Notes: generated by a model not told the origin, from the sequence alone. A stretch of DNA of 64,000 nucleotides from a virus (IMGVR_UViG_3300032245_000484:2689-66688), one strand, 5' to 3'. Counted from the stretch's first letter, positions 6,959 to 63,322 are shown. Translations and numbers: made by a program.

Positions 6959-7828
6959 ATGTACGACAAACTACCAAGAGTACGATATATCACGCCACAG
7001 GGATTTGTGGAAATGTCAGACATCACCACGACATTCAAGGTTCGTCAGAAGGCTATTGAAGACGGTGCATATCCATTGAATGTCTCTGTCCCTGAAAATG
7101 ACAGACCAGAAGTCTTCTCGGACAGGGTATACAATAGATCCGACATGCACTGGATGATCTTGAACATGAACAACATGGCGAACCCATATTACGATTGGGT
7201 GCTTAGTCCCGCCGCGTTCGACAATTTTGTGGAGGAGAAATATCCTGGCTATACTCTTTTCCTTCTTGATGTGAATGGTACAGATGCATTCGAGGGTTCT
7301 TTCCGCACAAATGACATCGTATTTGCCACAGGGGTGACCAATCCCGACGAGCAGCCATCGATTCAATCCTCGCTGAAGAATGCCCGCGTGGTTTCATATG
7401 ATCCCGCATATTGCCGTCTTGTCATGGAGTTCACCAAGAAGACCGAATGGCTTCCGCAGGAAGGTCAATACATTGCTGGTGCAAATACCAACAAGGTCGG
7501 AGAGATCACCTACTATGTCGCCAAGATTGGAAAGATTATCGAAAGCCAGTATGCTGCCCACCATTTTGAAAACTCGGATAGCGAACTGCTGAACCCAACG
7601 CTACCCGCATCTCTTCACAATGAGTTCATTGAAGAGGGAGACTTCGGATATACTTTCGGGGCGACTCCTCTGGGTAAATACATCCTTGAGGACTTCGGAG
7701 ACTACACGATCACCAATCGGGAATATGAGATTGGTGTGAACGACACACACAGGAACATCACGCTGGTTCCCATAAAGCACCTTGCAAACATAGATCGTGA
7801 CATAGGCACATTGCTGGCAAATGGCTAA
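6959..7828 (+). CDS. gp53: baseplate wedge subunit
   Basis: DRPE.FS..VY....HW.IL..N...NPYYDW (LysM-like), HHFE, TNREYE..ND..R.I motifs. Confidence 0.85.
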   Translation: MYDKLPRVRYITPQGFVEMSDITTTFKVRQKAIEDGAYPLNVSVPENDRPEVFSDRVYNRSDMHWMILNMNNMANPYYDWVLSPAAFDNFVEEKYPGYTLFLLDVNGTDAFEGSFRTNDIVFATGVTNPDEQPSIQSSLKNARVVSYDPAYCRLVMEFTKKTEWLPQEGQYIAGANTNKVGEITYYVAKIGKIIESQYAAHHFENSDSELLNPTLPASLHNEFIEEGDFGYTFGATPLGKYILEDFGDYTITNREYEIGVNDTHRNITLVPIKHLANIDRDIGTLLANG

Positions 7829-9140
7829 TTCAATAAACAACATACCGACATACACCGACAATGCGTTTGAGATATCTCGCATTGAACTGCAATCCAATTC
7901 GGGTGGAAAGCCAATCGATCTCATGGAGATATACACGGAGATCGTGATATTCGAATCGATATTCGACAACAAGATGATCGGTGAGATCGTGATCCGAGAT
8001 GCACTGAACTATGCTGAAACACTTCCCATCGTCGGAAACGAATCGATACACATAGAGTACAAGACCAAGGGAGTGATTTGCGATACGGTTACGATCAAGG
8101 GAAAGGTCTTTGCTCCTCTTGGCAAGTCGAGGACTTCCAACGAAAAGACTGAGGTCTACAAGATGCAGTTTGTGTCCGACTTGCAGTTCTACAACAGGAT
8201 GCTGCGGGTGAACACTTCTTATGAAGGTCAAATCACATCTATAGCCTCCAAGATGTTCATTGACCAGTTTGGTGATCAGAATTCCAACAAACTGATGTTC
8301 AATGAGACCAGCATCGGACAGCACAAGTTCGTATTTCCGTACTGGACCCCAATCTTTGCGCTATCGTGGCTTTCTCAAAGAGCATATTGCAACAACCCAT
8401 CATGCTTCGTGTTCTATGAGGATGTTGATGGATTTCACTTTAAGAACCTGCTCAAGGCGATAGAGGCTGATCCGAAGTACACATATCGCGTCGAGCCTAA
8501 GAACGCATACAACCAAGGAACGGTTGAAGGCTTTCTCACTAAGGTGCAGGATTATTCCATCACTTCCTTCTTCGACAGACTTGAAGAGTATGGATCTGGA
8601 ATGTATGCGGGTGGATTGCTGACGCATAACATAACCACCAAGGAATACGAGCCATACACATTCAACTATGGGGACAGTTTCCTCAATAGTCGGCATCTCA
8701 ATCAATATCCCCTGTTCCCGCAGAAGACCACTCTTGGCGATAAATTAAATTCTGCATCATCGGGATTCCGAAATGTGCTTCCCGTACAGTACCGCAAGTT
8801 CAATAGCATCTTGGACAATGAGAAGCCAGATCGATATTTCCTGCAAAGGAGCAGCATACAGAAGCAGTTCACGACATTGAGGGTGACGATGACAGTTCCC
8901 GGTAACTCAAGTCTCCGTCTCCTTGATGTGCTGAACTTCGAACTACCGAAGTCGGGATACCTGGAAAACGCGGAATCCGATTGGCAAGACAAGTATCTGA
9001 GTGGCAAGTACATCATAGTGTCGATGAAGACCATCATAAATAAGGGGAGCGGCTACAACACAGTCGTGGAAATGTCCAAGGATTCACTCGTAGAAGGAAT
9101 CCCAAGCAAGTTTGAGGGAAGTTCCGAAGGAAGAATATAA
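7821..9140 (+). CDS. baseplate hub protein (gp27/gpD-like)
   Basis: IFESIF...G...I.DA......LPI.GNE, FVFYE..DGFHF, VPGNS.L, YLSGKYII; located before gp5. Confidence 0.7.
   Translation: MANSINNIPTYTDNAFEISRIELQSNSGGKPIDLMEIYTEIVIFESIFDNKMIGEIVIRDALNYAETLPIVGNESIHIEYKTKGVICDTVTIKGKVFAPLGKSRTSNEKTEVYKMQFVSDLQFYNRMLRVNTSYEGQITSIASKMFIDQFGDQNSNKLMFNETSIGQHKFVFPYWTPIFALSWLSQRAYCNNPSCFVFYEDVDGFHFKNLLKAIEADPKYTYRVEPKNAYNQGTVEGFLTKVQDYSITSFFDRLEEYGSGMYAGGLLTHNITTKEYEPYTFNYGDSFLNSRHLNQYPLFPQKTTLGDKLNSASSGFRNVLPVQYRKFNSILDNEKPDRYFLQRSSIQKQFTTLRVTMTVPGNSSLRLLDVLNFELPKSGYLENAESDWQDKYLSGKYIIVSMKTIINKGSGYNTVVEMSKDSLVEGIPSKFEGSSEGRI
9036..9042 (+). promoter_or_regulatory. late promoter (ATAAATA) near the end of the hub gene
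   Basis: CATAAATA about 100 nt upstream of the small ORF at 9140 and upstream of gp5. Confidence 0.4.
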
Positions 9141-9295
9141 TGGAGAAAATCATGAGCAACAGTGAAACACCGCATGTAATCACACCACAGGAAATCGAAG
9201 ACAAACTCCGCAAGTTGCCATATACCAAGGAAGAACTTCTTGATTGGGAACGATGGGGCAATGATACCTTTGGATATCCAGAAAGAAAGCGATGA
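9140..9295 (+). CDS. hypothetical protein, 51 aa (not in the ORF track)
   Basis: ATG overlaps the hub gene stop (TAATG); MEKIMSNSETPHVITPQEIEDKLRKLPYTKEELLDWERWGNDTFGYPERKR fills the gap before gp5. Confidence 0.5.
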   Translation: MEKIMSNSETPHVITPQEIEDKLRKLPYTKEELLDWERWGNDTFGYPERKR

Positions 9296-9298
9296 TAG

Positions 9299-11734: not shown

Positions 11735-11736
11735 GG

Positions 11737-12833: not shown

Positions 12834-14668
12834 TGCCAAATCGCACGCTCATTCCAGTCACTCAACTAGACTTCGATGGCATCAAGCAGAATCTGAAGAA
12901 CTATCTGTCCACGACTCAGGAGTTCTCCGATTACGACTATGAGGGGGCGGGCATCAATGTCCTTCTTGACCTTCTTGCATACAATACCCACTATACCGCA
13001 ATGTATGCAAACATGCTTGCGGCTGAATCCTTCATCGATTCTGCCGTCATGCGGAAGTCCATTGTCTCGCTTGCCAAGAACCTAGGATATATCCCGAACT
13101 CAAGGAATGCCGCTATTGCGACAGTCTCGTTGTCTTTCGGTGCCACGGCAGGGGTTCCGAGTAGCGTTCCAACAGGAACTAACTTCACTGCGACCAAGAA
13201 TGGTTCCGAATATGTGTTCACTACCACGGAGCCATATCAGATAGACAAGAGCAGTGTTCCCTATACCTGCAACAACATCGACATCCATCAGGGAAAGTAC
13301 AAGAGCATCTCGTTCGTATATGATCCCGACAGCAACATGACGAAGTTTGAGATTCCCTTCCCGAGCATCGATAAGAGTCTCATCAGAGTCTATGTCATGA
13401 AGTCTCCTTCGGATCTAGCAAGCGCAGACTTCACTTGGAGAGAGAATACCGACTATCTTGAACTTGATTCGACTAGCAAGGTCTACTTCATCAACGAGAA
13501 CTATCGCGGAAACTATCAGGTTTCCTTTGGTGATGGCATCATCGGTACGACACCCGAGAAGGGCAACTACATCGTGGTTGTATTCTTCGAAACCAATGGT
13601 GTTGAGGGAAATGACATCGGAAAGGGAGATAGCAGCACTTCTTCCTTCGTGTTCTCTGGTATTGGTGGCAACGCATACAATGCGACCGTCACTACGGTCA
13701 CTCCTTCCTATGGTGGTGCTGAAAGGGACACCGAGGATAAGATCCGATATACCGCTCCGAAGTACTATCAGTCTCAGAACAGGACCGTCACGGCATATGA
13801 CTATGAGAGCATCATATTGCGCGAATATCCCGATGCGGAAGCCGTGAGGGTCTGGGGTGGAGATGAAAATGATCCACCCGAGTATGGAAAGGTATACATC
13901 TCCATCATCCCGAAGAACTCTCGCGTCCTCAGCGATGCACAGAAGGAAAGCCTCGTCAAGAATGTCCTGAATAAGAAGAAGATCGTGACAGTAACGGCTG
14001 AAGTGCTGGATGTTGACTACACCTATGTCCTGATAGAGTGCTTCGCCACATACAACTCTTCGCTTGCATACACCTCCGAGCAGTCGATTCGTGATGCTAT
14101 CCGAGCAGCAATAGAGTCATATTCGACTCTTTCGCTACAGACATTCAATGCCTCATTCAGGTATTCGGTTCTTTCAAGGCAGATCGATCTCTCCAGCAAC
14201 TCGCTGGTCAGCAATAGAATCAATACTCGCCTAGCCAAGAGAATAATCCCGATATATGGAACGGCAAACTATACCCTTGAGTATGGGGCGGCACTTAATC
14301 ATCCCTTTGATGGAAATCCATCGGTAATAAGCACATCCATCTTTCAGCACCGCGATATGGACAATGTCGTGAGGGATTGCTTCATAGAGGACAATGGTCG
14401 TGGTAGATTGGTAATGTATAGAATGGAAAATGGTTCTAAGAAGACGGTATATCCAAACATAGGAACCGTTGATTATTCCACGGGCAAAGTGAACCTGACG
14501 GCATTCTCTCCAACAGGCACAGGAACCCTCACATACATCAACTTCACGGTAGTTCCCGATCAAAAGTTCGACATCATACCCAAGAGGAACCAAGTCCTTC
14601 TTGTGGACATGAACTCACCCGATTCCACCACCATAAACTTGCAGGACGCTGCGGTTAGAGGGGTCTGA
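12833..14668 (+). CDS. gp6: baseplate wedge subunit
   Basis: LDFD.IK.NLK.YL, F.DYD.EG....LLD.LAYNTHY, FGDG..G, Q.R.VTA.DY, WGGDENDPP.YGKVYI. Confidence 0.93.
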   Translation: MPNRTLIPVTQLDFDGIKQNLKNYLSTTQEFSDYDYEGAGINVLLDLLAYNTHYTAMYANMLAAESFIDSAVMRKSIVSLAKNLGYIPNSRNAAIATVSLSFGATAGVPSSVPTGTNFTATKNGSEYVFTTTEPYQIDKSSVPYTCNNIDIHQGKYKSISFVYDPDSNMTKFEIPFPSIDKSLIRVYVMKSPSDLASADFTWRENTDYLELDSTSKVYFINENYRGNYQVSFGDGIIGTTPEKGNYIVVVFFETNGVEGNDIGKGDSSTSSFVFSGIGGNAYNATVTTVTPSYGGAERDTEDKIRYTAPKYYQSQNRTVTAYDYESIILREYPDAEAVRVWGGDENDPPEYGKVYISIIPKNSRVLSDAQKESLVKNVLNKKKIVTVTAEVLDVDYTYVLIECFATYNSSLAYTSEQSIRDAIRAAIESYSTLSLQTFNASFRYSVLSRQIDLSSNSLVSNRINTRLAKRIIPIYGTANYTLEYGAALNHPFDGNPSVISTSIFQHRDMDNVVRDCFIEDNGRGRLVMYRMENGSKKTVYPNIGTVDYSTGKVNLTAFSPTGTGTLTYINFTVVPDQKFDIIPKRNQVLLVDMNSPDSTTINLQDAAVRGV

Positions 14669-16683
14669 TGCCACTAGCCCAACTACCACTTCTCTTTGGC
14701 GGAACTGGTGCGCTAGTTGAGGCTGAAAACCTCAGACTATCTGAGGAATCTCCTCGCGTCATCAAGAGATTTGGTCCGAGCAATCTGATCGTCAATCAGG
14801 TTCCTGCTTTCATAAATCGCGATCATGAGTTGTTCCGCAGGTTCGTTGAGGCATACTATGAGTGGATGGAGCAGTATCAGAATGCATTCGGAATCATCGA
14901 CGCATTCACCGAACTCACCGATATAGACGAGACTCTTGGTCTGTTCTTCGGTGAGTTCCGAGCAATGTACCTACAGAACTTCCCCTCGCAACTGGCTACG
15001 GATGAGAATGGGAATGTGATCAGTGAAGCCAACTTCCTCAAGAATGTGCGCAACTTCTATGGTTCCAAGGGAACTGAAAAGGCATATCGTTTCCTCTTCA
15101 GATTGCTCTACAATGTCTATTCCGAGGTCAAGTATCCTGGTGAGGACATATTGAAGTGTTCCCACGGAAAGTGGATCGAAAGGCAATCGCTGAAGGTCAC
15201 AAGCAGTGGAGGAACTGCAAACTTTGCAATGGCGGGCAATCAGGTCTATCAGATGGATCCAGTCACAGGAAATGTATCTGGTTCCGCTATTGTGACCGAG
15301 GTCACTCAATATACGAAGAAATACTATGAAGTCACTGAAGTCTTCATAAAGAACATATTTGGAACATTCGATGCTTCCAGAAAACTGTATTGCAATGTGA
15401 ACGGAGCGATCCTGGAGGAAAGCATATATCCCGTAGTCACGGAGATAACGGTCCGCAATGGTGGTTCTGGCTATGACATCATAGATGATGTTGTCATCAA
15501 CAACAGCGAGAATGGAATCGGTCTTGTAGCAGCCATAGAACTGCTCGACACCAAAGGCAAGATCAAGATCATAAAGGTTCTTGATTCTGGTATTGGATAC
15601 ATCGACGGATTCACTTCGACTGTCGTATCAAATACCGGTGATGGCAAGGCATCCCTCACTCCAGTGATCGGTGCCGTTACCCATTATGCTGGCTACTATG
15701 CGAACAATAATGGCAAGTTGAGTTCCAACAAGAAGTTGTTCGATGGAGACTACTATCAGGATTTCTCATATGCCCTGAAGAGCGAGATATCTTTCTCAAC
15801 ATATAAGGAACTCTACAAGAAACTGGTTCATCCCGCAGGATTCAAGATGTTTGGCGAGATCCTGATGCGGCGTAACATGATCGACAATCTCCCGTTCCAT
15901 TCGGAGATGCAGCGGTATGAGATTCCATACATCGGTCACTATACTCCATACAGGATGGGTACTACTGCCGATCTATACAGCGTGTATCCGAGCGGATTCA
16001 ATCCACGCGGAAACACATACAGCACCTATCAGAACTATGGACAGACGGGTGGAAAACTATTCGTCAAGCCAGTCGGATTCACATTCATCGAAGGAACGGT
16101 TTGGACGACGATTGGAGCAACGGGTATCGGTGGAACTGGTATTTCGGGTTCCGTGTTTGAGTTCCGAGTGCTGAACAGCGGAGGAACCTATGGTGTCCTG
16201 CTTCTAAAGGGAATAGATTTCAATACGGCATCTGCTTCGGTGACGGGACCGGGATTCCTTGAGGGTGCCACATTCAGGATGTATACGGCATCCGCTGGCT
16301 TCACCGCAACAATCGACCGTGTTCGATATGGAGTCGGAATCGTACCCGAAACTGGTGGCTATACACACAATCCACAGGGCGCACCGCTTGGAAGCAGTCT
16401 TGGAGTTGAGGGATACATAGAAGCGAAGGGATTGAGTTATTCGTATTGGCGCGTCTACCACCATCCGAACATCCGTGGAATATATGGATTGACGGGTGTT
16501 TGGAACGGATTGACGGGAGCGGGTGCATCCTTCGGATCGGTAGCACTCAAGCCATTCTTCAAGATGCCAATAGGATATCACTTCCATTCCAACTCCGTAG
16601 GAACTCCATATCAGGGAACCACGGGAGCCGATCTAGAATATGGTCTGATCGAAAGCACAACCCTAGTATCACCGAACTTCTAA
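14668..16683 (+). CDS. gp7: baseplate wedge initiator (gp7-like)
   Basis: Q.P.F...D...F..F..AYYEW, FY.SKGTE....FLFRLLY, YYQDFSY..KS, VHPAG.K.FG; located between gp6 and gp8. Confidence 0.75.
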   Translation: MPLAQLPLLFGGTGALVEAENLRLSEESPRVIKRFGPSNLIVNQVPAFINRDHELFRRFVEAYYEWMEQYQNAFGIIDAFTELTDIDETLGLFFGEFRAMYLQNFPSQLATDENGNVISEANFLKNVRNFYGSKGTEKAYRFLFRLLYNVYSEVKYPGEDILKCSHGKWIERQSLKVTSSGGTANFAMAGNQVYQMDPVTGNVSGSAIVTEVTQYTKKYYEVTEVFIKNIFGTFDASRKLYCNVNGAILEESIYPVVTEITVRNGGSGYDIIDDVVINNSENGIGLVAAIELLDTKGKIKIIKVLDSGIGYIDGFTSTVVSNTGDGKASLTPVIGAVTHYAGYYANNNGKLSSNKKLFDGDYYQDFSYALKSEISFSTYKELYKKLVHPAGFKMFGEILMRRNMIDNLPFHSEMQRYEIPYIGHYTPYRMGTTADLYSVYPSGFNPRGNTYSTYQNYGQTGGKLFVKPVGFTFIEGTVWTTIGATGIGGTGISGSVFEFRVLNSGGTYGVLLLKGIDFNTASASVTGPGFLEGATFRMYTASAGFTATIDRVRYGVGIVPETGGYTHNPQGAPLGSSLGVEGYIEAKGLSYSYWRVYHHPNIRGIYGLTGVWNGLTGAGASFGSVALKPFFKMPIGYHFHSNSVGTPYQGTTGADLEYGLIESTTLVSPNF

Positions 16684-16684: not shown

Positions 16685-19018
16685 ATGGCAAACAATGCAC
16701 TAAAGACTCTACTCAAGACCGATCTGATTGAAATGATCCGTCTTGGCATTTCGGACAGCAATCAGTACTACCTGTTTGTCAGTAGGGCATTGCCATATAC
16801 CGATGTAACCTCAACGACACTGGTGACGGAAAGCGACATACGCCCACCCTCTATTGGGGAATCCTCGCGGAATGCATATGATACCTACCGCAACATGGTG
16901 TTCATGAAGCGGATTCGACCAGAGAACCTGAAGTTGATGATTCCGAGGATCGATTGGACCTCGGGAGAGGTCTATACTCCCTATTCCGAGACCACCGACA
17001 TGGCTGGCGAAACCTACTATGTCATGACATCGGAATACAATGTCTACAAGTGCATGGCATCGAATGGGACATCGACCATCATGCCCACGGGTAAGAGTAC
17101 CAATGTGGTGTCTTTCGAGGACGGCTACAAGTGGAAGTACATCTATACCGTCACCGAAGACATGATAGACCATGTCACCCTCGACTATATTCCTGTATTC
17201 GTTGCCGACGAATCGCATAGTGATCAAAAGCAGGTCCAGAACCTCGCGGCACCCGGTTCGATAGACACAGTCACCGCAACGACGAACAGCAGCCTTGTCT
17301 TCGACAAGATATACCGCCTTGATGGCTATTTTAGCAACAACAAGACGGCAATGCAGACTGATCTTGGCATAACACCGAATGTCGCAGGATCGACCTATGT
17401 CTGCTTCACTCCACCGAACGAGCAGGGAGATGTGTCGAATGGATACTGGAATGACTATGCGATATATGTCAGAAGCGGACCTGGCATCGGTCAGTATTTC
17501 AGGATTGTGGACTTCAAGAAGGGTGGAAATGCGGGATCAAGTTACTACTATGCGAATGTATATCCCGCATTGACCCGTGATGTCGTATCGATATCGGAGG
17601 CTTCAAGTCCTGCGAATGCATCCAAGTTGAAGGTCGTTCCGTATGTGGTTGTGGATGGGGATGGAACAGATGCCGTCGTCATTCCAAATACGGGAACCGA
17701 CAAGTACATCACTTCACTTAGCATAATCAATCCGGGCTACAACTACACATATGCACAGCCAAGGGTTGTCACCGAGAAGAGCAGCGTGACATTGGGTTCC
17801 GCTGTCGCGACATACAACTCCTCCATCTCGACAAGCATCTCCACGCCAAAAGGTCATGGAGCAAATGCCATCAAGGAGTTTGGTGCATCCGATTTGATGA
17901 TCTTGGTGGAGATAGAGGGAACCGAGGACGGCAAGATATCCACGCGCAACGACTACCGTCAGTTCGGCATCGTCAAGAGTCCGTATCTATACGGAGGAGA
18001 GACATTCGCTGGCTACGAGGAAGAAGTTGTGCTGAAGGCTCTCATAAAGAGACAGCCAACCAAGAATCTATATGATGTCAATACATTTGTGAAGGGAAAC
18101 CACATCATTGGCAAGGAAACCCGTGCCACTGCCCGCATACTCGACAGCGAATCCATCCCAGGCTCAAGGTTCCATCGGCTGTACCTGACAGATGTCGTTG
18201 GAGACTTCCGTTTCTCAGACGATGGTTCCAAGAAGATACGGGTATTCTTCGACAGCACCTATACGGGAACCTTCGTCACGGGAGATATTGCCACTCAGTA
18301 TGAGGGAACCATCGGGCTTACCTTGACTGGATCTGGAAACATCGTTTCGTATGACATGAATGAAAAGCAGTTCGTGGTCGATACCACTTACGGATCGTTT
18401 GTTTCTGGCAAGACCATGATCTTCGTCGGCAGCGGCGGTCACACTCTCAGTGGAGCAAAGATCCTCGAAGTAGATGAAGAGTTTGGTGAGATCCTCGGAC
18501 AGGTTGTCTTTGGAACCACCTCTGGTAGCGATTTCCTCACATTCGGAGGAGATGAGGTGTTTGGTCGCCTTGCATCGACGGAGTTCGTCCCCACCGCCAA
18601 GGAAAATCTTGGCGAGTACCGCATGACAACCAAGTTGACCGTGGTCAATGCATCTCTATTCACGGATGGGGTGATCGCTTCCTCTTCTGCATTGGATGGA
18701 ACTATCACGCAGACCAATCCGATGACTCTAGCCAAGGTGACGGGAACTGTTGTTGACTTCACTGTTGCTGGTGGTCTTGGATTCACAGGAATCATCAGTC
18801 TCAACAACCTGACGGGAACATTCAGTCAGATTGGAACATTGACATTCACTCCATACGGAACCACTGCGGATACCGCATTGTCTACCGTCACAATCAACAG
18901 CATAACCAACCCCGAGGTTTCTGTAGGTTCCGGAGAGTTGTTATACATAGAAAATGTACGACCAATAGAACGAAATATCGAACAATCCGAGCAATTCAAG
19001 ATTGTAATCGGTTTCTAG
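16685..19018 (+). CDS. gp8: baseplate wedge subunit
   Basis: PRIDW.SG..Y, YYVM...YNVYKC, DGYKWKY.YT, P.GHG.N...E, NDYRQ.G, SGELLYIEN.RPI.R...Q.E..KI. Confidence 0.85.
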   Translation: MANNALKTLLKTDLIEMIRLGISDSNQYYLFVSRALPYTDVTSTTLVTESDIRPPSIGESSRNAYDTYRNMVFMKRIRPENLKLMIPRIDWTSGEVYTPYSETTDMAGETYYVMTSEYNVYKCMASNGTSTIMPTGKSTNVVSFEDGYKWKYIYTVTEDMIDHVTLDYIPVFVADESHSDQKQVQNLAAPGSIDTVTATTNSSLVFDKIYRLDGYFSNNKTAMQTDLGITPNVAGSTYVCFTPPNEQGDVSNGYWNDYAIYVRSGPGIGQYFRIVDFKKGGNAGSSYYYANVYPALTRDVVSISEASSPANASKLKVVPYVVVDGDGTDAVVIPNTGTDKYITSLSIINPGYNYTYAQPRVVTEKSSVTLGSAVATYNSSISTSISTPKGHGANAIKEFGASDLMILVEIEGTEDGKISTRNDYRQFGIVKSPYLYGGETFAGYEEEVVLKALIKRQPTKNLYDVNTFVKGNHIIGKETRATARILDSESIPGSRFHRLYLTDVVGDFRFSDDGSKKIRVFFDSTYTGTFVTGDIATQYEGTIGLTLTGSGNIVSYDMNEKQFVVDTTYGSFVSGKTMIFVGSGGHTLSGAKILEVDEEFGEILGQVVFGTTSGSDFLTFGGDEVFGRLASTEFVPTAKENLGEYRMTTKLTVVNASLFTDGVIASSSALDGTITQTNPMTLAKVTGTVVDFTVAGGLGFTGIISLNNLTGTFSQIGTLTFTPYGTTADTALSTVTINSITNPEVSVGSGELLYIENVRPIERNIEQSEQFKIVIGF

Positions 19019-30692: not shown

Positions 30693-30709
30693 ACAAGGAA
30701 TCCTAACCT

Positions 30710-31723
30710 ATGCCAGGTGTAGTCAATACAACAGGAAGCAACGATGCAGGAGCCGCTGGTGGACAACCAGGAAATCCAGATCCAGATGTCGGATCGGGTA
30801 GTGGCACTACCACCACAGGAGGTGGCACCACGGTCATATCTGGTGGTGATACTCCATCCTCATATCAATACGACATAATCAGCCTCTATGGTGGAGTCGG
30901 AAGTGCATATCTTTCGATGAACAACTCCAGCATGTCATGCAACTCATCGGTTGCTGTATTCAACCGAAACAATGCATTTGCGGCATTGAGTACATCGACA
31001 GCCAACTATTCGAACTGCTGCTCCTATGCGGCGAATCAAGGATTCATTGCAGCAAACACCTCGCGCATTGCTGCCTCACTCTGCGTTGCATCGATTTCTG
31101 CATACAACTTCAAGGTGAACTCTTCCTCATCGATGTATGCCAACCTATGTGCATCCGTGTTTCCCTCGCTATTCGGAATCCATGCAAGCAGCACATCGAC
31201 ATTCTCATCGAATGAGATGGAAAGCATGACTTTCTTCTGGTCAACCACAGGACCGGTTCCTGTCCACTTCAGCAGCAGTCAGAACTCCTATTGCACGAAT
31301 AGTTCGACTGCAATGTCCACCAAGACATCCGCAGGTCTTTCTGGACCACTCATGAATGGAAAGCAAGTGAGTTTCCTGTGGTCGCAGATATACCGAGATA
31401 CGACTACTGGCAATGGTATACAGAATACTCCCATTCCGGGCAACATCTTCTATGCCAATCCAAAGGCTAGTTACCGTTATGTTCCGTTTCAGCACTCCAC
31501 GGATTACTCAAACATAACAGGTTCGGGATTGAGTTCGATTACCGACACCACAGCAATCTCAACCACGGGAATAATCCAAGTCATTGCAATGGGAAGGAAC
31601 TGCTATACCTCGGTCAAGCCTCCAGACTATCTCTATCCACCAGAAGACAACTCAGGAAAGGTCGGAGTGGGTGGATTGACTGGAGCATTCTCGGTATCAG
31701 ATCTGTTGTCTGCTTTGGTTTGA
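30710..31723 (+). CDS. beta-helix-repeat virion protein
   Basis: G/T/P-rich leader followed by about 22-residue Ser/Cys/Asn rungs similar to the end of the upstream gene. Confidence 0.55.
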   Translation: MPGVVNTTGSNDAGAAGGQPGNPDPDVGSGSGTTTTGGGTTVISGGDTPSSYQYDIISLYGGVGSAYLSMNNSSMSCNSSVAVFNRNNAFAALSTSTANYSNCCSYAANQGFIAANTSRIAASLCVASISAYNFKVNSSSSMYANLCASVFPSLFGIHASSTSTFSSNEMESMTFFWSTTGPVPVHFSSSQNSYCTNSSTAMSTKTSAGLSGPLMNGKQVSFLWSQIYRDTTTGNGIQNTPIPGNIFYANPKASYRYVPFQHSTDYSNITGSGLSSITDTTAISTTGIIQVIAMGRNCYTSVKPPDYLYPPEDNSGKVGVGGLTGAFSVSDLLSALV

Positions 31724-31741
31724 TAGAACAAGGAAAACTAC

Positions 31742-58247: not shown

Positions 58248-58706
58248 ATGGCACTTACAGTACAGGACTTCACGATAGAGCAGGGTGCTTCGTTCATCCT
58301 TGAGTTTGAACTCAAGAAGGATGACGATACTCCTCTTGGTCTGATGACCCCATCAGCCGGTGGTGCGAATACCTATGATCTGGGAATCTATTCCTTCCGC
58401 ATGAAGTTGCGGAAAACCAAGTACGGCTGCCTTACCTGCATCGGTGCAGTCGCATATTCTCTTTCTGAAACCGACATCATACAGGTCGGGGATGACGATA
58501 CAGAGGGTCTTACCGCAGATGGCTTCTATGTCATTGCAGGAACTCCTGGCAAAATCAGATTGACAATCAATCCCACTTCCACTGCTGCGATAAAGTATGG
58601 AAAGTACTTCTATGACATAGAGGCAGTTTCGGGGACAACTGGAAGTTTTGAAGTGACCAAGGTTCTCTCTGGTCGCATGGTAGTGAACGCAGAAGCAACC
58701 ACCTGA
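58248..58706 (+). CDS. Ig-like fibre adaptor protein, paralogue 1
   Basis: IEQGA.F, Y..RM..RK, G.I.L......T......Y.YDIE.......KVL.G motifs. Confidence 0.65.
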   Translation: MALTVQDFTIEQGASFILEFELKKDDDTPLGLMTPSAGGANTYDLGIYSFRMKLRKTKYGCLTCIGAVAYSLSETDIIQVGDDDTEGLTADGFYVIAGTPGKIRLTINPTSTAAIKYGKYFYDIEAVSGTTGSFEVTKVLSGRMVVNAEATT

Positions 58707-58715
58707 GAGGAAAAC

Positions 58716-59165
58716 ATGGCAGCACTGAGCATAGACCTAAATGCCGAGCAGGGATCCACCTTCGTACTTGAGTTTCAGGTATTCGATGACCTCTTGACTC
58801 CGATACAGATGCTTGAGCAAAGCATCAATGCATCTGGAACCACGGAGTATTCCCTCGACGCCTACCGCATGAGGATGAAGATCCGCAAGTCCAAGTACAC
58901 GAATTCGATCATCTATTCCGCTGGCATCACCACCAACTTCGTGGTTCAGCCAGGAACAACCGAAGGATTTGTGCGAGATGGATTTGCCTTCGTCGGTGGA
59001 GCAACCGGATTTGCAAGGATGATAATCACATCAGATACTGCGGCTTCTTTCAAGGGAGGTCGGTACTTCTACGATGTGGAACTTGTCGAGTTGGTCGGCT
59101 CGGATGAGATAGTCAGCAAGTTGCTGGATGGAAAGTTCGAAGTAGCAGCAGAGGCAACCAAATGA
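58716..59165 (+). CDS. Ig-like fibre adaptor protein, paralogue 2
   Basis: AEQGSTF, Y.MRMKIRK, YFYDVE, KLL.G.F.V.AEAT; clearly homologous to the upstream gene. Confidence 0.65.
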   Translation: MAALSIDLNAEQGSTFVLEFQVFDDLLTPIQMLEQSINASGTTEYSLDAYRMRMKIRKSKYTNSIIYSAGITTNFVVQPGTTEGFVRDGFAFVGGATGFARMIITSDTAASFKGGRYFYDVELVELVGSDEIVSKLLDGKFEVAAEATK

Positions 59166-62100
59166 AGATAACGAACATACGGGTAAAGAACAACTACAAG
59201 GTCAAGTTGACGAACTCCAAGTTGGCTGGAGTCAATGCTGGTACTAGCGTTGTCGCTGAACAGGGAACAAGGACTCCCGTCATCCCTACTCCACCTGCAC
59301 CGCCCAAGACCTTCCAAGAAAAATATGACATTGTGATGAAGTACCTCATCGAAAGGTACGAGCCAGGTTGGTCTGCTGCCGATCCTGTGGTGGGCAAGGC
59401 AGCAACGATGTCATTGCTTGGAGTATCGGCAGGAATCAATCCACTGATCCTTGGTGGAACTGCTCAATCCGCATTTCAATATGCTGCATATCCGGGTAGT
59501 TCATATGCGGACGGTGGGTGGTTTGATCCATTGACCCATCCGAAGGATTTTGCCGCAGCAGTCAAGTCTGCATATAAAGTCTTTGAACGGGCAAGAAGCC
59601 CTCAGAAGGCAAAGCATCGGTTTGTGGACTACCAACTCTATGGTATTGGAGATGCCACCTCTAGTCCTGGACCTGGTGGAAACATGTTCTTCAACTTCAA
59701 TGATTTCATGTGGTATCCGGATACCAACACAAATCCACAGAAATCTATGGGTCTTACCCTAAACTACAACAATTGCATAGAGAGAGTTTTCATGCAGTGT
59801 CCATATGGACACTTTGGGACTCCGATGTCGGGTATTGGTGGGCTACACAAGAGAAGTTTTCCTTGGATCTCAGACAGGTATACGCATGGATATTGGAGAT
59901 TTGATTCTGGGTTGCTTCTGCGTGAATCCACCACGATGAGGGACTTGCTGAATGATGTTGGAATCACCCGTGATCCGTTCAATGGAGTAGTTGTCGATGG
60001 TGTCACAGATGCATTCCTAAATGAGAGTTATCGCAACTACTTCTATCCCGCAGGACATTATACTGCTACGATGGGCGATAGATCATCCGGAGGATTTACT
60101 GGTGGTGTGGTATCTGTTGGTTCTCCGTGGATACGATATCCACAAGGATTGACATGGTCGGATGGCTGGTGGGGTGGCAATGTACCAGGTTTGTGCTTTA
60201 ACAAACTTACCCTTCAACTATTCGATGGGACTACCTTCCCAACCAACCCACAGGAAATAACCGACCGCCCCGTACCCTATAACACCATCGGCATATCGTA
60301 TGGTTTTGGAGAGATGGTATATCAATCCCTGAATGACCTATCATCGGCATGGGGAAATTCGATGGAGTTCATCGGTTATCTTGGTGGTCTTCCATACGGA
60401 ACAGAGTTTGAAAGCATGGTTCCCTGGGCACTCTTTAGGGATCCAACCGTTGCAGGAAATACGGCGTATTTCAACTGGAGGCTTGATGCATCGGTTTCTC
60501 ATTGGAAGGAGAAGTTCCGTTCACCAATCGATGGATTTGCCCATGTATTCATGGATGCATCTTCACTGATCGAACGGACATTCCATCGATATCAGCCAAA
60601 TGGTTTCACTGCATGGAAAAACATTGCAAGCAATGGAGTGAGTTTCGTTGAGAACATACCCGTAACTTGGGCTAGAAAACAGTTCAACAATACCTATGGA
60701 TCAAGTGGTGGCAATGGAGTGGTGCTAGGCATCGAACGATTTGCACACTATATGTTCATGGATGACGGAGATATACTTGATCCCAACTCCAACAATCAGC
60801 GAAAATCGCCAACAGACACATTGCCTAGACATTGGTGTCTCGACAGCGATATTGCATCATCATTGCAAACCAGTCTCTATGATCTTGTCATCGGACAAAG
60901 GCGGCGAGGACTGACCTACACCAACCAAGTCTGGGGAATGGGTGTTTGTGGCAGCAGTTATCTCGGGGAACTTTATGTTGGATGTAGACCCGATGCATCA
61001 CCTGTTTCATATCTCCCGCTTGATGCATATCCTTTCTTCTACAATACATTCATACAGTTGAATGGAGATACATCGGGACTTCCTCCGTTGGAATGGAAGC
61101 GTATTTCAAATACGGTGTATAACCCTTCACCATACACACCCAGCAGCCTTGGAGTTCCTTGGGATCGTGATCGTAGATTCCGGCTCTTCTATCTCTATCC
61201 GACGATTCTTGCGCTGAATGGAACCGTGTTTGATGGTTTCTATAATGGAGATTCTCGATTTGCTCCTCAATCTACTGGTTGGTTCGATATTTCAAAGGGC
61301 AGGCTTTTGCAATATGACATGGGAACTGATCTTCCAGCAACTCCAGCACAGAACTTCTGGAGTGGAAATGCAAGAACATCGGAGTTTGAACTTCTCTATG
61401 CCTGCATGAAGGGTGGATTGACTGCTGGTCTTGATTCACTCGGGTTCACAAACCTCTACAATGAACTGGACAATGCAGGAACCACTCCAACGACTCCTGA
61501 AGGATACTATCGTGCATTGGACTATACTGTCTATGGTGCTGCCTACTTTGGACTCACCGGAGACAATCCTGCAATAGTCCCAATAATCAAGCCACAAGGA
61601 AATGCTAACTACAGAGGATATACTGATCCTGGTTCCACGGCAGGATTGCCATCGACTGAGTTTGCCGACTTTGTTTCTGTGGCAACAACTATTCCTATCG
61701 AACGGCGTGTAGTCATACCAACCTACTGGCTCCTTGATGGACCTTCAACATTTAGACCAAACGATTACTTCTTCAAGAGAACTGCGGATGGAACCACATA
61801 CACAGGAAATACTCCTGGTGTAACATATCTAAGCACCGACTATGGTGGTACATTCACGAATCTTGATACCTCTCCCCTGAGGTTCAATACTCCTTGGGCA
61901 TATGTAAACCGCGAGACAGCAAAAACATCGTACAAGAACTTCTTGCAACAGGCAAGGAATGTGGGTCAACTCTTCAGTGTTGTCAATGATGATAATGAAG
62001 CACTGGATATATTCAGCATCGGATCTTTTTATAATACTCACACTGCTGGTACTGCGGCACTTGATTCGTTCGTCGATACCTACCCGTGGCTAGAAGTCCC

Positions 62101-63322
62101 CGATGCAAGGCGTTTCGGAGCCATCATGGACGATCCTAGGTTTGTTGGAATCACAAACAGCGTGACGAATCGGACACTTGCACAAGAGTTCAAGCAACAT
62201 TATGATTCGATTCTAGTGAGTGAGGGTATGGGTGTTTGTGGGGCAAGTGCAGCAGCCATACTGACTTTCTTCACTGATGTGAACAATAGAAACGACTTCA
62301 AGGCACCTTGGGGCATTACCGAGCAAATATTGAAGATGTATGCATGGAACTCTGCGATCTATACATTCTGTCACGGAGACTTGAAATCCAAGATCATCGG
62401 CGACTCGTTGAATGAAACAGCAGGATTCCCAAGTACCAAGAAGTACTCATCTACTCTCTATGCAACCAATGCAGCAGAGGCTAAATTTGCCACGGATCTC
62501 AATGGTCATCGCAGAGTGCAAGAACATATTACTGGCTATGGACATGAGGTGCATTCCTATGGTCAGTTGGCAGGTGGAAAGAATGCATCGGGTGTGGATC
62601 CATCGGGTGGTGCAGGACCAATAAATCTGTATGGGTATCCACCAGGTGCTACAACGGACGAGGCAACTCGCTATGGCAAGTCATTCGGATGGCATCCTGT
62701 TGCAGAGGGAGGCATTACATTTGGATGTCCTGCATATCAGGCATTCATTGCGGACATCCGTAGGTTCCGAGGAATACTTCGTACAAGACCACAGGCATAT
62801 CAGGATGGCATTCGTACATGGATCTTAGGATCTCTCACTGGTGCATTTGGTGGATGGAGTGGAGATGCTTCCTATACTCAGTTCTATGAAGGAAACTCAT
62901 ATGCAACTGAATACTATAAGGAGCAGTTCTACCATCTCTGCTTGAACGGAGTGGAGGCATTCCATATCTTCAATTCGAATGGATCAGTTTCTCTGCCGAA
63001 CCAACTTCTCATCGATTGGAAGACAATCAGCGGAAACACTGTTGGTATTCCATGCACAAATGCCACGGGTGCCACAGGTGCTACCATCGACCGCATCGAT
63101 CTGTATCAAGCGGGAACCAATCAGGTGATCAGCGGAGCATATATTGGAAACACAGGTTCTAGGTTGTGGAGAATAACGGTTCCGCCAGGAAAGACTCAGT
63201 TGGTCAATCAAAGCACGACTCAGCCAAATCTTCCAGCAACTATTCCGATCCCATCTGGTTCTCGCGGAGTATGGCTGACGGCTCCTGCATCTTATGGTAT
63301 GCCTGATTATTTGAGTACATGA
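59162..63322 (+). CDS. very large hypothetical virion-associated protein, 1386 aa
   Basis: ATGA-coupled to the adaptor gene; short basic N-terminal strand, Pro linker, aromatic-rich globular regions, many GxT motifs. Confidence 0.7.
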   Translation: MKITNIRVKNNYKVKLTNSKLAGVNAGTSVVAEQGTRTPVIPTPPAPPKTFQEKYDIVMKYLIERYEPGWSAADPVVGKAATMSLLGVSAGINPLILGGTAQSAFQYAAYPGSSYADGGWFDPLTHPKDFAAAVKSAYKVFERARSPQKAKHRFVDYQLYGIGDATSSPGPGGNMFFNFNDFMWYPDTNTNPQKSMGLTLNYNNCIERVFMQCPYGHFGTPMSGIGGLHKRSFPWISDRYTHGYWRFDSGLLLRESTTMRDLLNDVGITRDPFNGVVVDGVTDAFLNESYRNYFYPAGHYTATMGDRSSGGFTGGVVSVGSPWIRYPQGLTWSDGWWGGNVPGLCFNKLTLQLFDGTTFPTNPQEITDRPVPYNTIGISYGFGEMVYQSLNDLSSAWGNSMEFIGYLGGLPYGTEFESMVPWALFRDPTVAGNTAYFNWRLDASVSHWKEKFRSPIDGFAHVFMDASSLIERTFHRYQPNGFTAWKNIASNGVSFVENIPVTWARKQFNNTYGSSGGNGVVLGIERFAHYMFMDDGDILDPNSNNQRKSPTDTLPRHWCLDSDIASSLQTSLYDLVIGQRRRGLTYTNQVWGMGVCGSSYLGELYVGCRPDASPVSYLPLDAYPFFYNTFIQLNGDTSGLPPLEWKRISNTVYNPSPYTPSSLGVPWDRDRRFRLFYLYPTILALNGTVFDGFYNGDSRFAPQSTGWFDISKGRLLQYDMGTDLPATPAQNFWSGNARTSEFELLYACMKGGLTAGLDSLGFTNLYNELDNAGTTPTTPEGYYRALDYTVYGAAYFGLTGDNPAIVPIIKPQGNANYRGYTDPGSTAGLPSTEFADFVSVATTIPIERRVVIPTYWLLDGPSTFRPNDYFFKRTADGTTYTGNTPGVTYLSTDYGGTFTNLDTSPLRFNTPWAYVNRETAKTSYKNFLQQARNVGQLFSVVNDDNEALDIFSIGSFYNTHTAGTAALDSFVDTYPWLEVPDARRFGAIMDDPRFVGITNSVTNRTLAQEFKQHYDSILVSEGMGVCGASAAAILTFFTDVNNRNDFKAPWGITEQILKMYAWNSAIYTFCHGDLKSKIIGDSLNETAGFPSTKKYSSTLYATNAAEAKFATDLNGHRRVQEHITGYGHEVHSYGQLAGGKNASGVDPSGGAGPINLYGYPPGATTDEATRYGKSFGWHPVAEGGITFGCPAYQAFIADIRRFRGILRTRPQAYQDGIRTWILGSLTGAFGGWSGDASYTQFYEGNSYATEYYKEQFYHLCLNGVEAFHIFNSNGSVSLPNQLLIDWKTISGNTVGIPCTNATGATGATIDRIDLYQAGTNQVISGAYIGNTGSRLWRITVPPGKTQLVNQSTTQPNLPATIPIPSGSRGVWLTAPASYGMPDYLST

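What the first reader, a model, noticed from the sequence alone, without database searches (positions are those of the whole stretch)
6959..63322. A G-x-T motif saturates exposed virion proteins but not enzymes: candidate virion-wide modification (glycosylation) sequon
Seen: Gly-x-Thr, mostly G[ALIVFGST]T and often followed by G or A, recurs in unrelated structural proteins. Examples: the gp7 C-terminus (13 in about 245 aa by my count, e.g. IGATGIGGTG, GLTGV, GLTGA), gp8 (GIT, GST, GLT, GFT), gp6 (FGATAG), gp53 (GVT, GYTFGAT), gp13 (TGSTGA), gp14 (SGITF, QGLTF), both sheaths (SGLTG, GGLTA, SGFTA, VGFTA), the variable loops of gp23 (AGLTGVT, GGTT), the fibres, and the 806 and 1386 aa proteins. 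I found none in terminase, portal or gp47, and only one or two in gp21 and uvsW. The motifs tend to fall in insertions relative to the conserved cores and are not collagen Gxy runs. Known: some mycobacteriophages glycosylate their virions. Inference: this is a sequon for a phage or host enzyme that coats the whole particle, e.g. by O-glycosylation. No glycosyltransferase is visible in this window.
Basis: partly seen in the sequence, partly recalled or inferred. Interest (0 to 1): 0.82.

Follow-up and report, generated by a model that had tools for sequence, protein, structure and literature searches.

The report
Candidate glycosylation motif on phage virion
The outer proteins of this T4-like aquatic phage carry far more copies of a short Gly-x-Thr-Gly/Ala motif than chance allows, and its relatives encode a protein-sugar-adding enzyme, so the motif may mark sites where the virus particle is coated with sugars, though this is not proven.

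Summary
The window is the structural module of an uncultured T4-like myovirus; the contig is estimated 37% complete. The raw contrast in G-x-T between structural proteins and enzymes is mostly Gly/Thr composition. A real excess remains: 177 observed against 112 expected, the top of 400 a-x-b pairs. It resolves into G-x-T-[G/A], 67 against 18, or about 21 by local shuffles. G-x-T followed by any other residue is near background, 110 against 94. The excess lies in 13 peripheral or large proteins (sheaths, fibres, gp7 C-terminus, capsid, five unknowns) and is absent from 16 core virion proteins and 10 enzymes. It acts at the protein level, prefers T over S and not V, and is missing from T4, Melnitz, HTVC008M and a distant relative. 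Two related lineages share it, although only 3 of about 24 aligned sites coincide with the more distant one. Both lineages, including the nearest relative, encode a GT2+TPR enzyme. Its best sequence and fold matches are the peptide and protein glycosyltransferases SunS, ThuS and GmaR, whose known acceptor is a Gly-flanked nucleophile. Sugar-nucleotide and further glycosyltransferase genes accompany it. Best reading: an O-glycosylation acceptor motif (about 0.4). Main rival: a lineage-specific loop or turn motif (about 0.35). No direct evidence of modification exists.

The parts
14668..16683 (+). gp7-like baseplate wedge protein (671 aa). The C-terminal 245 aa are motif-rich.
   Evidence: PHROG and Pfam baseplate wedge hits. 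G-x-T 16 against 6.1. 10 G-x-T-[GA] sites.
16685..19018 (+). gp8-like wedge protein (777 aa)
   Evidence: G-x-T 10 against 8.1, not enriched. 2 G-x-T-[GA] sites near the C-terminus.
19031..24262 (+). 1743-aa DUF4815 protein of the baseplate/fibre block
   Evidence: G-x-T 13 against 9.8. 2 G-x-T-[GA] sites.
24431..27001 (+). tail fibre protein (856 aa)
   Evidence: PHROG tail fibre. G-x-T 19 against 10.1. 8 G-x-T-[GA] sites.
27012..28850 (+). tail fibre or collar-domain protein (612 aa)
   Evidence: G-x-T 9 against 7.4. 4 G-x-T-[GA] sites.
28860..30692 (+). unknown 610-aa protein in the fibre block. Virion status is inferred from its position only.
   Evidence: No family hit. G-x-T 10 against 5.1. 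5 G-x-T-[GA] sites.
30710..31723 (+). unknown 337-aa protein in the fibre block
   Evidence: No family hit. G-x-T 5 against 3.5. 1 G-x-T-[GA] site.
31742..33712 (+). unknown 656-aa protein with a ConA-like lectin/glucanase domain
   Evidence: Pfam Laminin_G_3. G-x-T 16 against 8.0. 7 G-x-T-[GA] sites.
36274..38694 (+). unknown 806-aa protein between gp15 and the small terminase
   Evidence: No family hit. G-x-T 12 against 6.2. 3 G-x-T-[GA] sites.
40880..42790 (+). tail sheath 1 (636 aa). All 7 G-x-T-[GA] sites lie in the inserted domains, residues 100-343.
   Evidence: In the AF2 model (pLDDT 83) the 7 motif Gly are in coil. Among 58 close homologues the mean is 3.7 sites against 0.68 expected; among 57 distant ones it is 1.2 against 0.73.
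42800..45691 (+). tail sheath 2 (963 aa), a paralogue with a large insertion
   Evidence: G-x-T 10 against 8.2. 4 G-x-T-[GA] sites.
50221..51678 (+). major capsid protein gp23 (485 aa)
   Evidence: G-x-T 6 against 3.8. 2 G-x-T-[GA] sites at residues 139 and 282.
58248..59165 (+). two paralogous small proteins of 152 and 149 aa (phrog_1084)
   Evidence: The 149-aa protein has G-x-T 5 against 1.1; homologues have 49 against 14.1. In G012 a family member is translationally coupled directly after the GT2-TPR gene.
59162..63322 (+). unknown 1386-aa protein, the largest single contributor
   Evidence: No family hit and no match in cultured phages. G-x-T 30 against 12.7. 9 G-x-T-[GA] sites.
63343..64000 (+). 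denV-like gene and the contig end. In relatives the GT2-TPR glycosyltransferase lies about 5-8 kb further on.
   Evidence: Gene order in L023/G001 and L021 is: 1386-aa homologue, denV-like, gp46, gp45, gp44, gp62, regA, GT2-TPR. The held contig has no hit to the GT2 profile.

Best explanation
G-x-[T>S]-[G/A] is the acceptor motif of a phage-encoded protein O-glycosyltransferase. It has an uncharged residue at x and is often followed by a second G/A. The enzyme is a GT2 (GT-A) catalytic domain fused to a TPR-like helical domain, of the SunS/ThuS/GmaR kind. It would be encoded a few kb beyond the end of this contig, as in the nearest relatives. It would add a first sugar to Thr in loop-edge motifs of the peripheral virion proteins in the cytoplasm: sheath insertion domains, fibres, the outer baseplate, capsid loops and several large unknown late proteins. 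Other glycosyltransferases and sugar-nucleotide enzymes found in relatives could extend it into a glycan coat. Shown: the motif excess, its specificity, its distribution, the enzyme's family and fold, and their co-occurrence in relatives. Inferred: that the enzyme exists in this phage, that it acts on these proteins, and that the motif Thr is the acceptor.
For: (1) G.TG (37 against 10.3) and G.TA (30 against 7.7) are the two most over-represented of all a.bc patterns in the structural set. G.TGA is 12 against 0.7. Local shuffles give about 21 against 67 observed. (2) The effect is at the protein level. Codon usage at the sites equals that elsewhere, and GGNNNNAC is not enriched out of frame. 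(3) The third position prefers nucleophiles. In window+G012 the ratios are T 3.34, S 1.87, C 4.27 (9 against 2.1), V 1.33 and all others 1.06 or less. In four genomes without the enzyme T is 1.26 and S 1.25. (4) Distribution: 13 peripheral proteins 64 against 15.7, 16 core virion proteins 3 against 2.5, 10 enzymes 1 against 0.8. In relative G001, 113 other ORFs (22.5 kaa) give 15 against 10.1. (5) The excess is not a T4-like generality. T4 16/14.1, Melnitz 14/10.9, HTVC008M 12/9.8 and G006 12/8.1, against window 67/18.0, G001 54/17.6 and G012 41/14.3. Binomial p is 1e-9. (6) Density is kept while positions turn over. Window and G012 share 3 of 25 and 23 aligned sites at 38% identity. No shared domain among the motif-rich proteins was found by phmmer. 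(7) The GT2-TPR gene is present in 4 of 5 close records, in the nearest relative and in complete genome G012. It is absent from G006 (91% complete), Melnitz, HTVC008M and S-SKS1. (8) The enzyme has an invariant IDADD motif. Profile hits are GmaR 2e-15, SunS 5e-10 and ThuS-like 3e-9. The AF2 model has pLDDT 89, and Foldseek ranks SunS and ThuS first over about 396 columns at E 3e-16, with TarS next at 6e-8. (9) Published acceptors of this family are a Cys flanked by Gly (G-C-G-G/S), and also Ser for ThuS (PMC6405829, passages). GmaR O-GlcNAcylates flagellin (PMC9638930, passages). (10) In G012 the enzyme ends a contiguous cluster of GT47-like, GT25, GT10 and GT2 genes, a sugar C-methyltransferase and 3 SDR enzymes. 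G001 has a comparable cluster.
Against: There is no direct evidence of any modification. The enzyme is not in the held 37% of this genome. Co-occurrence rests on related lineages, effectively one or two evolutionary events. Tunturi_5 carries a 38%-identical enzyme but shows no genome-wide excess (75 against about 85 outside one collagen-like ORF). Two huge phages show nothing within 20 kb of their copy. G-x-T followed by F/Y/V/W/L is also raised (1.9-3.5), and is mildly raised in enzyme-free phages for F, L, V, W and I (1.5-2.4; Y is 0.71), which suggests a structural turn-to-strand component. The motif Thr is replaced by Ser only slightly more often than other Thr (28% against 24%), and is also replaced by N/A/G/D. 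In the sheath model the motif Thr have the same secondary-structure mix as other Thr. Known SunS-type substrates are small helical peptides and GmaR has one substrate, so a broad sequon would be new for the family. The glycan genes could instead serve host-surface or DNA modification.
Confidence: 0.4

Rival explanations
1. The motif is a lineage-specific structural motif without modification. G-x-T-[small or aromatic] would be a favoured loop-to-strand or loop-to-helix junction: a Gly turn, then a Thr side-chain cap. It would have spread through the fast-evolving peripheral domains of this clade. The glycosyltransferase cluster would do something else.
For: In the sheath model all 7 motif Gly are in coil, and the Thr sit at loop ends, strand starts or a helix start. 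G-x-T-[F/L/V/W/I] is raised 1.5-2.4 fold in phages without the enzyme. The motif Thr is more conserved than other Thr (for example 0.71 against 0.47 in gp7), as a structural residue would be. It is replaced by turn formers N/G/D as well as by S. One universally conserved G-I-T-D lies in the sheath core.
Against: It does not explain why the excess is absent from the homologous peripheral domains of T4, Melnitz, HTVC008M and G006, or from 57 distant sheath homologues. It does not explain why V is not favoured at position 3 while S and C are. It does not explain how density is kept when positions are not. No shared domain was detected.
Confidence: 0.35
2. The same motif is recognised by a different enzyme or factor. 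Candidates are another post-translational modification of Thr (for example phosphorylation) or an assembly chaperone. The GT2-TPR enzyme would be unrelated to it.
For: The statistics show only a protein-level, hydroxyl-preferring motif on late proteins. There are 23 genes shared by G012 and G001 and absent from three enzyme-free genomes, several of them of unknown function.
Against: No kinase or other protein-modifying family was seen among the 23 clade-specific genes that had Pfam hits. The only protein-directed modifier found is the GT2-TPR enzyme.
Confidence: 0.1
3. The sites are remnants of collagen-like G-X-Y runs or of small-residue low-complexity loops.
For: Short runs such as GATGATG, GGTGGT and GATGIGGTG exist. 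Relatives G001, G012 and Tunturi_5 have true collagen-like GATGATGPTG fibres.
Against: Only 12 of 177 sites are in tandem. Shuffling within 10-aa blocks, which keeps local composition, gives 22 against 67. The reverse motif [GA]-T-x-G is only 1.33. There was no Pfam Collagen hit among the 20 window proteins scanned.
Confidence: 0.05
4. The pattern is a composition or chance artefact.
For: Most of the raw contrast between structural proteins and enzymes is Gly/Thr content.
Against: Poisson p is 7.5e-19 for G-x-T-[GA] in the window. The excess is replicated in G001 and G012, and no shuffle reached the observed count.
Confidence: 0.02

Closest known systems
SunS / ThuS / PalS glycocin glycosyltransferases (GT2 domain plus TPR-like domain)
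   Same: They are the best fold match over the whole length of the relatives' enzyme and give profile hits. The DxD motif is present. They modify Cys, Ser or Thr flanked by Gly; the known motif is G-C-G-G/S (PMC6405829, passages). That resembles a nucleophile followed by G/A-G/A here.
   Different: Identity is only about 15-20%. Known substrates are single small helical bacteriocin precursors with Gly at -1. Here Gly is at -2, Thr is preferred, and there would be dozens of large virion proteins as targets. No activity was tested.
GmaR, the Listeria flagellin O-GlcNAc transferase (GT domain + TPR + antirepressor)
   Same: It is the best sequence hit of the catalytic domain (E 2e-15). It O-glycosylates a surface filament protein in the cytoplasm, and the TPR domain is proposed to bind the protein substrate (PMC9638930, passages).
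   Different: The phage enzyme is 413-439 aa and lacks the antirepressor part. GmaR has one substrate. I did not see a published sequon for it.
Virion glycosylation of mycobacteriophages (Freeman et al. 2023)
   Same: Phage-encoded glycosyltransferases decorate capsid and tail proteins.
   Different: This is recalled, and was seen only as a reference entry in PMC12801897. The paper itself is not held, so I could not compare sites or enzyme families. The hosts and the phage family differ.
Glycosylation of chlorovirus and giant-virus capsids or fibrils by virus-encoded enzymes
   Same: Virus-encoded sugar-nucleotide synthesis and glycosyltransferases build glycans on virion proteins (search listing and abstracts only).
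   Different: These are eukaryotic viruses with N-linked or fibril glycans and unrelated enzymes. I read no details.
Phage DNA glycosylation clusters (RB69/DLP3 arabinosyl-5-hydroxycytosine; 5hmC glycans)
   Same: T4-like phages carry glycosyltransferases and sugar genes among DNA-metabolism genes (PMC13326640, abstract and section 25; bioRxiv 2023.12.21.572611, passages).
   Different: Those enzymes are GT-B types or TarP/JGT-like GT-A types, and they need a ThyA-family or TET-like enzyme. G001 and G012 gave no PF00303 or PF12851 hit (the second search had no positive control). DNA glycosylation would not explain a protein motif.
Collagen-like G-X-T regions that carry O-glycans (Bacillus exosporium BclA)
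   Same: Thr in the third place of a Gly-X-Y triplet serves as a glycan acceptor. G001, G012 and Tunturi_5 combine G-x-T-G collagen-like fibres with the GT2-TPR gene.
   Different: This is recalled from memory and was not checked in a paper. The window's sites are isolated, not triple-helix runs.

Membership tests
SunS/ThuS/GmaR-type GT2+TPR protein glycosyltransferase (applies to the relatives' enzyme) | GT-A catalytic domain with a DxD motif | tested here: met
   Pfam Glycos_transf_2. I-D-A-D-D is invariant in 32 sequences. The model has an alpha/beta domain at residues 1-165.
SunS/ThuS/GmaR-type GT2+TPR protein glycosyltransferase (applies to the relatives' enzyme) | C-terminal TPR-like helical domain | tested here: met
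   TPR hits at residues 179-299. The model is all-helical over 176-424. Foldseek also hits the OGT TPR domain and designed TPR proteins.
SunS/ThuS/GmaR-type GT2+TPR protein glycosyltransferase (applies to the relatives' enzyme) | Closest relatives are members of the family rather than polysaccharide or teichoic-acid GT2 enzymes | tested here: met
   PDB profile search: GmaR 2e-15, SunS 5e-10, ThuS-like 3e-9, next chondroitin synthase 8e-5. Foldseek: SunS and ThuS at E 3e-16 against TarS at 6e-8. The NCBIfam SunS model scores 38.8 bits against a cut-off of 350, so the enzyme is not an equivalog.
SunS/ThuS/GmaR-type GT2+TPR protein glycosyltransferase (applies to the relatives' enzyme) | Transfers sugar to a peptide or protein acceptor | not testable with these tools
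   This needs an enzyme assay.
SunS/ThuS/GmaR-type GT2+TPR protein glycosyltransferase (applies to the relatives' enzyme) | Encoded by the window's own phage | tested here: inconclusive
   The held contig (37% complete) has no hit. By synteny with L021 and G001 the expected place lies beyond the contig end. One exact-match scan of metagenome contigs found no extension.
Protein glycosylation sequon | Short ordered motif with a hydroxyl or thiol acceptor, over-represented beyond composition | tested here: met
Protein glycosylation sequon | Enriched in the supposed substrates and not in other proteins of the same genome | tested here: met
   The virion status of five unknown proteins is inferred from their position only.
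Protein glycosylation sequon | Co-occurs with the enzyme across genomes | tested here: inconclusive
   The excess appears in 3 of 3 T4-like genomes with the enzyme and 0 of 4 without, but the genomes are related. Tunturi_5 carries the enzyme without a genome-wide excess.
Protein glycosylation sequon | Sites are solvent-exposed | tested here: inconclusive
   Only secondary structure is returned. In sheath 1 the sites lie in the inserted domains, in coil or at element ends, but do not differ from other Thr.
Protein glycosylation sequon | Glycan detected on the acceptor residue | not testable with these tools
   This needs mass spectrometry.
Collagen-like triple-helix repeat | Long uninterrupted G-X-Y runs | tested here: not met
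   12 of 177 sites are in tandem. No Pfam Collagen hit in the 20 window proteins scanned. Relatives do have such proteins.

The most novel reading that the evidence does not exclude
A widespread clade of uncultured aquatic T4-like myoviruses coats the exposed parts of its virion with a glycan. The targets would be the sheath, fibres, outer baseplate, capsid loops and large accessory proteins. A glycocin-type (SunS/GmaR-like) GT2-TPR enzyme would start the glycan at a simple sequon, G-x-T/S-G/A, and a phage-encoded multi-enzyme sugar cluster would extend it. Selection would keep sequon density while individual sites turn over, as in the glycan shields of animal viruses. This would be the first sequon-defined protein O-glycosylation system of a phage particle, and a new role for the glycocin transferase family.
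Probability: 0.35. Interest if true: 0.85.

Novelty: new variant of a known kind. Interest (0 to 1): 0.68.

Why it matters
Glycosyltransferase and sugar gene clusters are common in marine and freshwater myoviruses. They are usually ascribed to host-surface or DNA modification, as in PMC12801897 (passages). A sequon readable from sequence, tied to a specific enzyme family, would make virion glycosylation predictable in metagenomes. It would bear on adsorption, grazing, aggregation, stability and recognition of phage particles. It would also give a compact, broadly acting O-glycosyltransferase with a four-residue tag for testing. If the motif turns out to be structural, it is still a clean case of a lineage-specific sequence signature of exposed domains, and a warning about motif counting without composition controls.

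Tried and rejected
- **DNA-level cause:** rejected. Codon usage at the sites equals that elsewhere, and there is no out-of-frame excess.
- **Periodic repeats:** the distances between sites show no strong period.
- **Shared domain among motif-rich proteins:** phmmer all-against-all found only the two sheaths and the 149/152-aa pair.
- **Cultured relatives of the 1386-aa protein:** none found. The Atlas gave only weak glycoside-hydrolase-like leads, all below 0.9.
- **Extending the contig:** an exact 40-base scan of metagenome contigs found nothing.
- **Independent co-occurrence:** Tunturi_5 shows no virion-wide excess, though a collagen-like G-x-T-G protein lies 4 kb from its enzyme. The regions around the enzyme in two huge uncultured phages were uninformative. 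Five further contigs carrying the enzyme held almost no structural genes.
- **Secondary-structure mapping on sheath 1:** it did not separate the hypotheses.
- **Earlier scan notes:** none for this genome.
- **The Freeman et al. 2023 paper:** could not be read.
- **Complex prediction:** not used, because enzyme-substrate pairs are a poor fit for it.

Full report
**What the window is.** PHROG and Pfam scans show the structural module of a T4-like myovirus. It holds baseplate hub and wedge genes (gp26-, gp48-, gp53-, gp5-, PAAR-, gp25-, gp6-, gp7- and gp8-like), a 1743-aa DUF4815 protein, two fibre proteins and three unknown proteins. Then come neck proteins gp13-15, an unknown 806-aa protein, both terminase subunits, two tandem sheath genes, tube, portal, protease, scaffold and major capsid. 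After these lie gp3, uvsY, a deaminase-like gene, uvsW, gp55, gp47, three small unknown proteins, an unknown 1386-aa protein and a denV-like gene. The capsid protein is at most 57% identical to cultured phages (Melnitz, pelagimyophages, cyanomyophages). The 1386-aa protein has no match in cultured phages. The whole held record is one contig of 66,688 bases, estimated 37% complete.

**The observation.** The quoted strings are there, and the gp7-like C-terminus does hold 13 G-x-T. The raw contrast is 0.94-1.92 sites per 100 aa in structural sets against 0.28 in enzymes. Most of it comes from the higher Gly and Thr content of structural proteins: composition predicts 112 of the 177 sites. A residue-order effect remains.
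- G-x-T is 177 against 112 (z 6.1), the strongest of all 400 a-x-b pairs.
- The controls are flat: G-T 1.18, G-x-x-T 0.96, T-x-G 0.99, G-x-S 1.06.
- Splitting by the next residue shows where the excess sits. G-x-T-[G/A] is 67 against 18.0. G-x-T followed by anything else is 110 against 93.9.
- Shuffling within blocks of 10, 15 or 30 residues, which keeps local composition, gives 20-22. No shuffle exceeded 38.
- G.TG and G.TA are the top two of all a.bc patterns, and G.TGA is 12 against 0.7.
- Only 12 sites lie in tandem arrays, and there is no clear periodicity.
- Codon usage at the sites matches the rest of the genes, and the DNA word is not enriched out of frame. The constraint therefore acts on the protein.

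**Where it is and is not.** Thirteen peripheral or large proteins carry 64 G-x-T-[GA] against 15.7 expected (p 5e-20). They are the gp7-like and gp8-like proteins, the 1743-aa protein, two fibres, the unknown proteins of 610, 337, 656, 806 and 1386 aa, both sheaths and the capsid protein. Sixteen conserved core or inner virion proteins carry 3 against 2.5, and for plain G-x-T 13 against 20.5. Ten non-virion proteins carry 1 against 0.8. So 'saturates exposed virion proteins' is too strong. The virion status of the five unknown proteins rests on gene position alone. In sheath 1 all seven sites lie at residues 100-343, between the conserved N- and C-terminal sheath domains.

**Is it a general property of such proteins? 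No.**

| Genome | GT2-TPR gene | G-x-T obs/exp | G-x-T-[GA] obs/exp |
|---|---|---|---|
| Window | not in held contig | 177/112 | 67/18.0 |
| G001 (156 kb, about 59% identical proteins) | yes | 176/110 | 54/17.6 |
| G012 (147 kb, complete, about 38% identical) | yes | 133/78.3 | 41/14.3 |
| T4 (33 virion proteins) | not searched | 96/87.3 | 16/14.1 |
| Melnitz | no | 82/68.8 | 14/10.9 |
| HTVC008M | no | 77/65.7 | 12/9.8 |
| G006 (150 kb, 91% complete, distant) | no | 69/54.5 | 12/8.1 |

In G001 the other 113 ORFs give 15/10.1. Among 58 close sheath homologues the mean is 3.7 sites against 0.68 expected. Among 57 homologues at 44-57% identity it is 1.2 against 0.73.

**Motif anatomy.** I compared window+G012 with the four genomes that lack the excess.
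- Position 1 must be Gly (3.34; all other residues 1.5 or less).
- Position 2 is anything but D, E or R.
- Position 3 favours T (3.34), S (1.87) and C (4.27, but only 9 against 2.1). V is 1.33 and all others are 1.06 or less.
- Position 4 favours A, F and G (3.1-3.7), and less so Y, V and W.

The aromatic and aliphatic options at position 4 are partly seen in the control genomes too. This points to a general turn-to-strand component under the clade-specific G/A signal.

**Conservation.** Within the close clade the motif Thr is more conserved than other Thr: gp7 0.71 against 0.47, gp53 0.85 against 0.44, fibre 0.94 against 0.52. It is replaced a little more often by S (28% against 24%) and less often by V/I (10% against 16.5%), but also by N/A/G/D. 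In the sheath, G and T are kept while x varies freely, as in GTTG, GFTG, GITG and GATG. Between the window and G012 only 3 of 25 and 23 aligned sites coincide, yet both are about three-fold enriched. No shared domain links the motif-rich proteins. Density is therefore maintained while positions change.

**The enzyme in relatives.** Four of five close-relative records hold a GT2 gene of about 425-439 aa. In G001/L023 the order after the 1386-aa homologue is denV-like, gp46, an unknown ORF, gp45, gp44, gp62, regA, GT2, dUTPase-like. The nearest relative, L021 (93% identical in the 1386-aa protein), has the same order, with the GT2 gene 5.4 kb past that gene. The window ends in the denV-like gene, so the expected site lies off the contig.
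- IMG/VR holds 122 stretches encoding this enzyme.
- Among cultured phages only Tunturi_5, four huge uncultured phages and a few Firmicute phage fragments match.
- It is absent from G006, Melnitz, HTVC008M and S-SKS1.
- An alignment of 32 sequences has an invariant I-D-A-D-D.
- A profile search of PDB sequences gives GmaR 2e-15, SunS 5e-10 and ThuS-like 3e-9. Weak chondroitin synthase and TPR hits at 179-299 follow.
- The AF2 model (pLDDT 89.4) is a GT-A domain followed by an all-helical domain.
- Foldseek ranks SunS and ThuS first over about 396 columns (E 3e-16), far ahead of TarS (6e-8).

These relatives glycosylate peptides or proteins. In the glycocins the acceptor is a Cys flanked by Gly (G-C-G-G/S), and ThuS also takes Ser (PMC6405829, passages). 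GmaR puts O-GlcNAc on flagellin, and its TPR domain is proposed to bind the substrate (PMC9638930, passages).

**Accessory genes.** Of 187 G012 ORFs, 65 have a G001 homologue, and 23 of those are missing from G006, Melnitz and HTVC008M. The 23 include the GT2-TPR gene, a GT10 fucosyltransferase-like gene, a sugar C-methyltransferase, a GDP-mannose-4,6-dehydratase-like gene and a collagen-like fibre. In G012 the GT2-TPR gene closes a contiguous block of GT47-like, GT25, GT10, C-methyltransferase, SDR, GT2 and two more SDR genes. It is followed, with overlapping stop and start, by a 152-aa member of the window's 149/152-aa family that carries 6 G-x-T. G001 has a similar cluster between gp41 and uvsX: an SDR, a nucleotidyltransferase, a HAD enzyme, two methyltransferases, GT10, GT7 and an RmlD-like gene.

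**Rivals.** The main rival is a structural loop-edge motif peculiar to the clade. The sheath model supports it in part. The seven motif Gly are all in coil, and the Thr sit in coil (4), at strand starts (2) or at a helix start (1). This is the same mix as the other Thr of the inserted domains (13/6/2), so the mapping does not discriminate. The rival does not explain the absence from homologous domains elsewhere, the T/S/C but not V preference, or the turnover at constant density.

The glycan genes might instead modify DNA, as in RB69/DLP3 or 5hmC-glycosylating phages. However, G001 and G012 gave no ThyA-family or Tet_JBP hit (the latter had no positive control). Those DNA enzymes are of other kinds, and DNA modification would leave the protein motif unexplained. 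Host-surface modification, the usual reading for cyanomyovirus glycosyltransferases (PMC12801897, passages), remains possible for the accessory genes.

**Weak points.**
- Nothing shows a modification.
- The enzyme is inferred, not seen, for this phage.
- The enzyme-motif association rests on related lineages.
- Tunturi_5, with a 38%-identical enzyme, has no general excess (75 against about 85). Its only motif-rich protein is a collagen-like GATGATGPTG fibre 4 kb from the enzyme (66 against 8.7).
- Two huge phages were uninformative.
- Supplements of the cited papers were not opened. The Freeman et al. 2023 paper is not held, so its sites and enzymes could not be compared.

**Verdict.** It is a G-x-T-[G/A] motif on peripheral virion and late proteins of one clade. 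The glycosylation reading gains circumstantial support from a SunS/GmaR-type enzyme and a sugar cluster in relatives. I put it at about 0.4, against 0.35 for an unmodified structural motif. It is a new variant of known kinds (virion glycosylation, glycocin-type transferases) and is directly testable by co-expression and mass spectrometry.

Noticed in passing
window 40880-42790 and 42800-45691: Two tail sheath genes lie in tandem. The second (963 aa) is a paralogue with a roughly 350-aa insertion (phmmer E 4e-122). G001 also has both. In G012 the listed ORFs (300 aa or more) include only one sheath-like ORF.
   Followed up: partly
window 59162-63322; L023 10001-16819: The 1386-aa protein has no family and no cultured homologue. 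The Atlas gives only weak glycoside-hydrolase-like leads, below 0.9. In G001 the homologue is 2272 aa, with a right-handed beta-helix domain in the extra C-terminal part.
   Followed up: partly
window 58248-58706 and 58716-59165; G012 69260-69718: A paralogous pair of small proteins (phrog_1084) has highly conserved G-x-T sites. A member of the family is translationally coupled to the GT2-TPR gene in G012.
   Followed up: partly
window structural set: V-x-T (51 against 88.5) and I-x-I (29 against 60.3) are strongly depleted. W-K-x-I is 6 against 0.3, probably from a repeated element in one protein.
   Followed up: no
window + G012 structural sets: G-x-C-[GA] is 9 against 2.1, compared with 3 against 1.7 in enzyme-free genomes. 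The numbers are small, but Cys is the classical acceptor of SunS-type enzymes.
   Followed up: no
window 52718-53266; G012 41277-41849: The deaminase-like gene after uvsY overlaps uvsY. In G012 its homologue hits dCMP_cyt_deam_1 and several APOBEC-like Pfam families. It is among the 23 clade-specific genes.
   Followed up: no
window 54651-55508: The longest ORF here starts 115 bases inside uvsW (53275-54765), so the real start is probably later. It has only a weak phrog_471 hit.
   Followed up: no
L150 / Tunturi_5 28905-33314: A 1469-aa protein with many GATGATGPTG collagen-like runs, interspersed with repeated globular segments, lies 4 kb from the phage's GT2-TPR homologue.
   Followed up: partly
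G001 47772-67214: The relative has a second fibre cluster with two Pfam Collagen proteins. One is of the GATGATGPTG type and one of the charged GERGEKGDQG type. The cluster sits next to thyX, gp41 and the sugar cluster.
   Followed up: partly
G012 73528-74448: A Mom-family protein (a DNA modification family) and two HNH endonucleases lie a few kb from the sugar cluster in the sister-clade genome.
   Followed up: no
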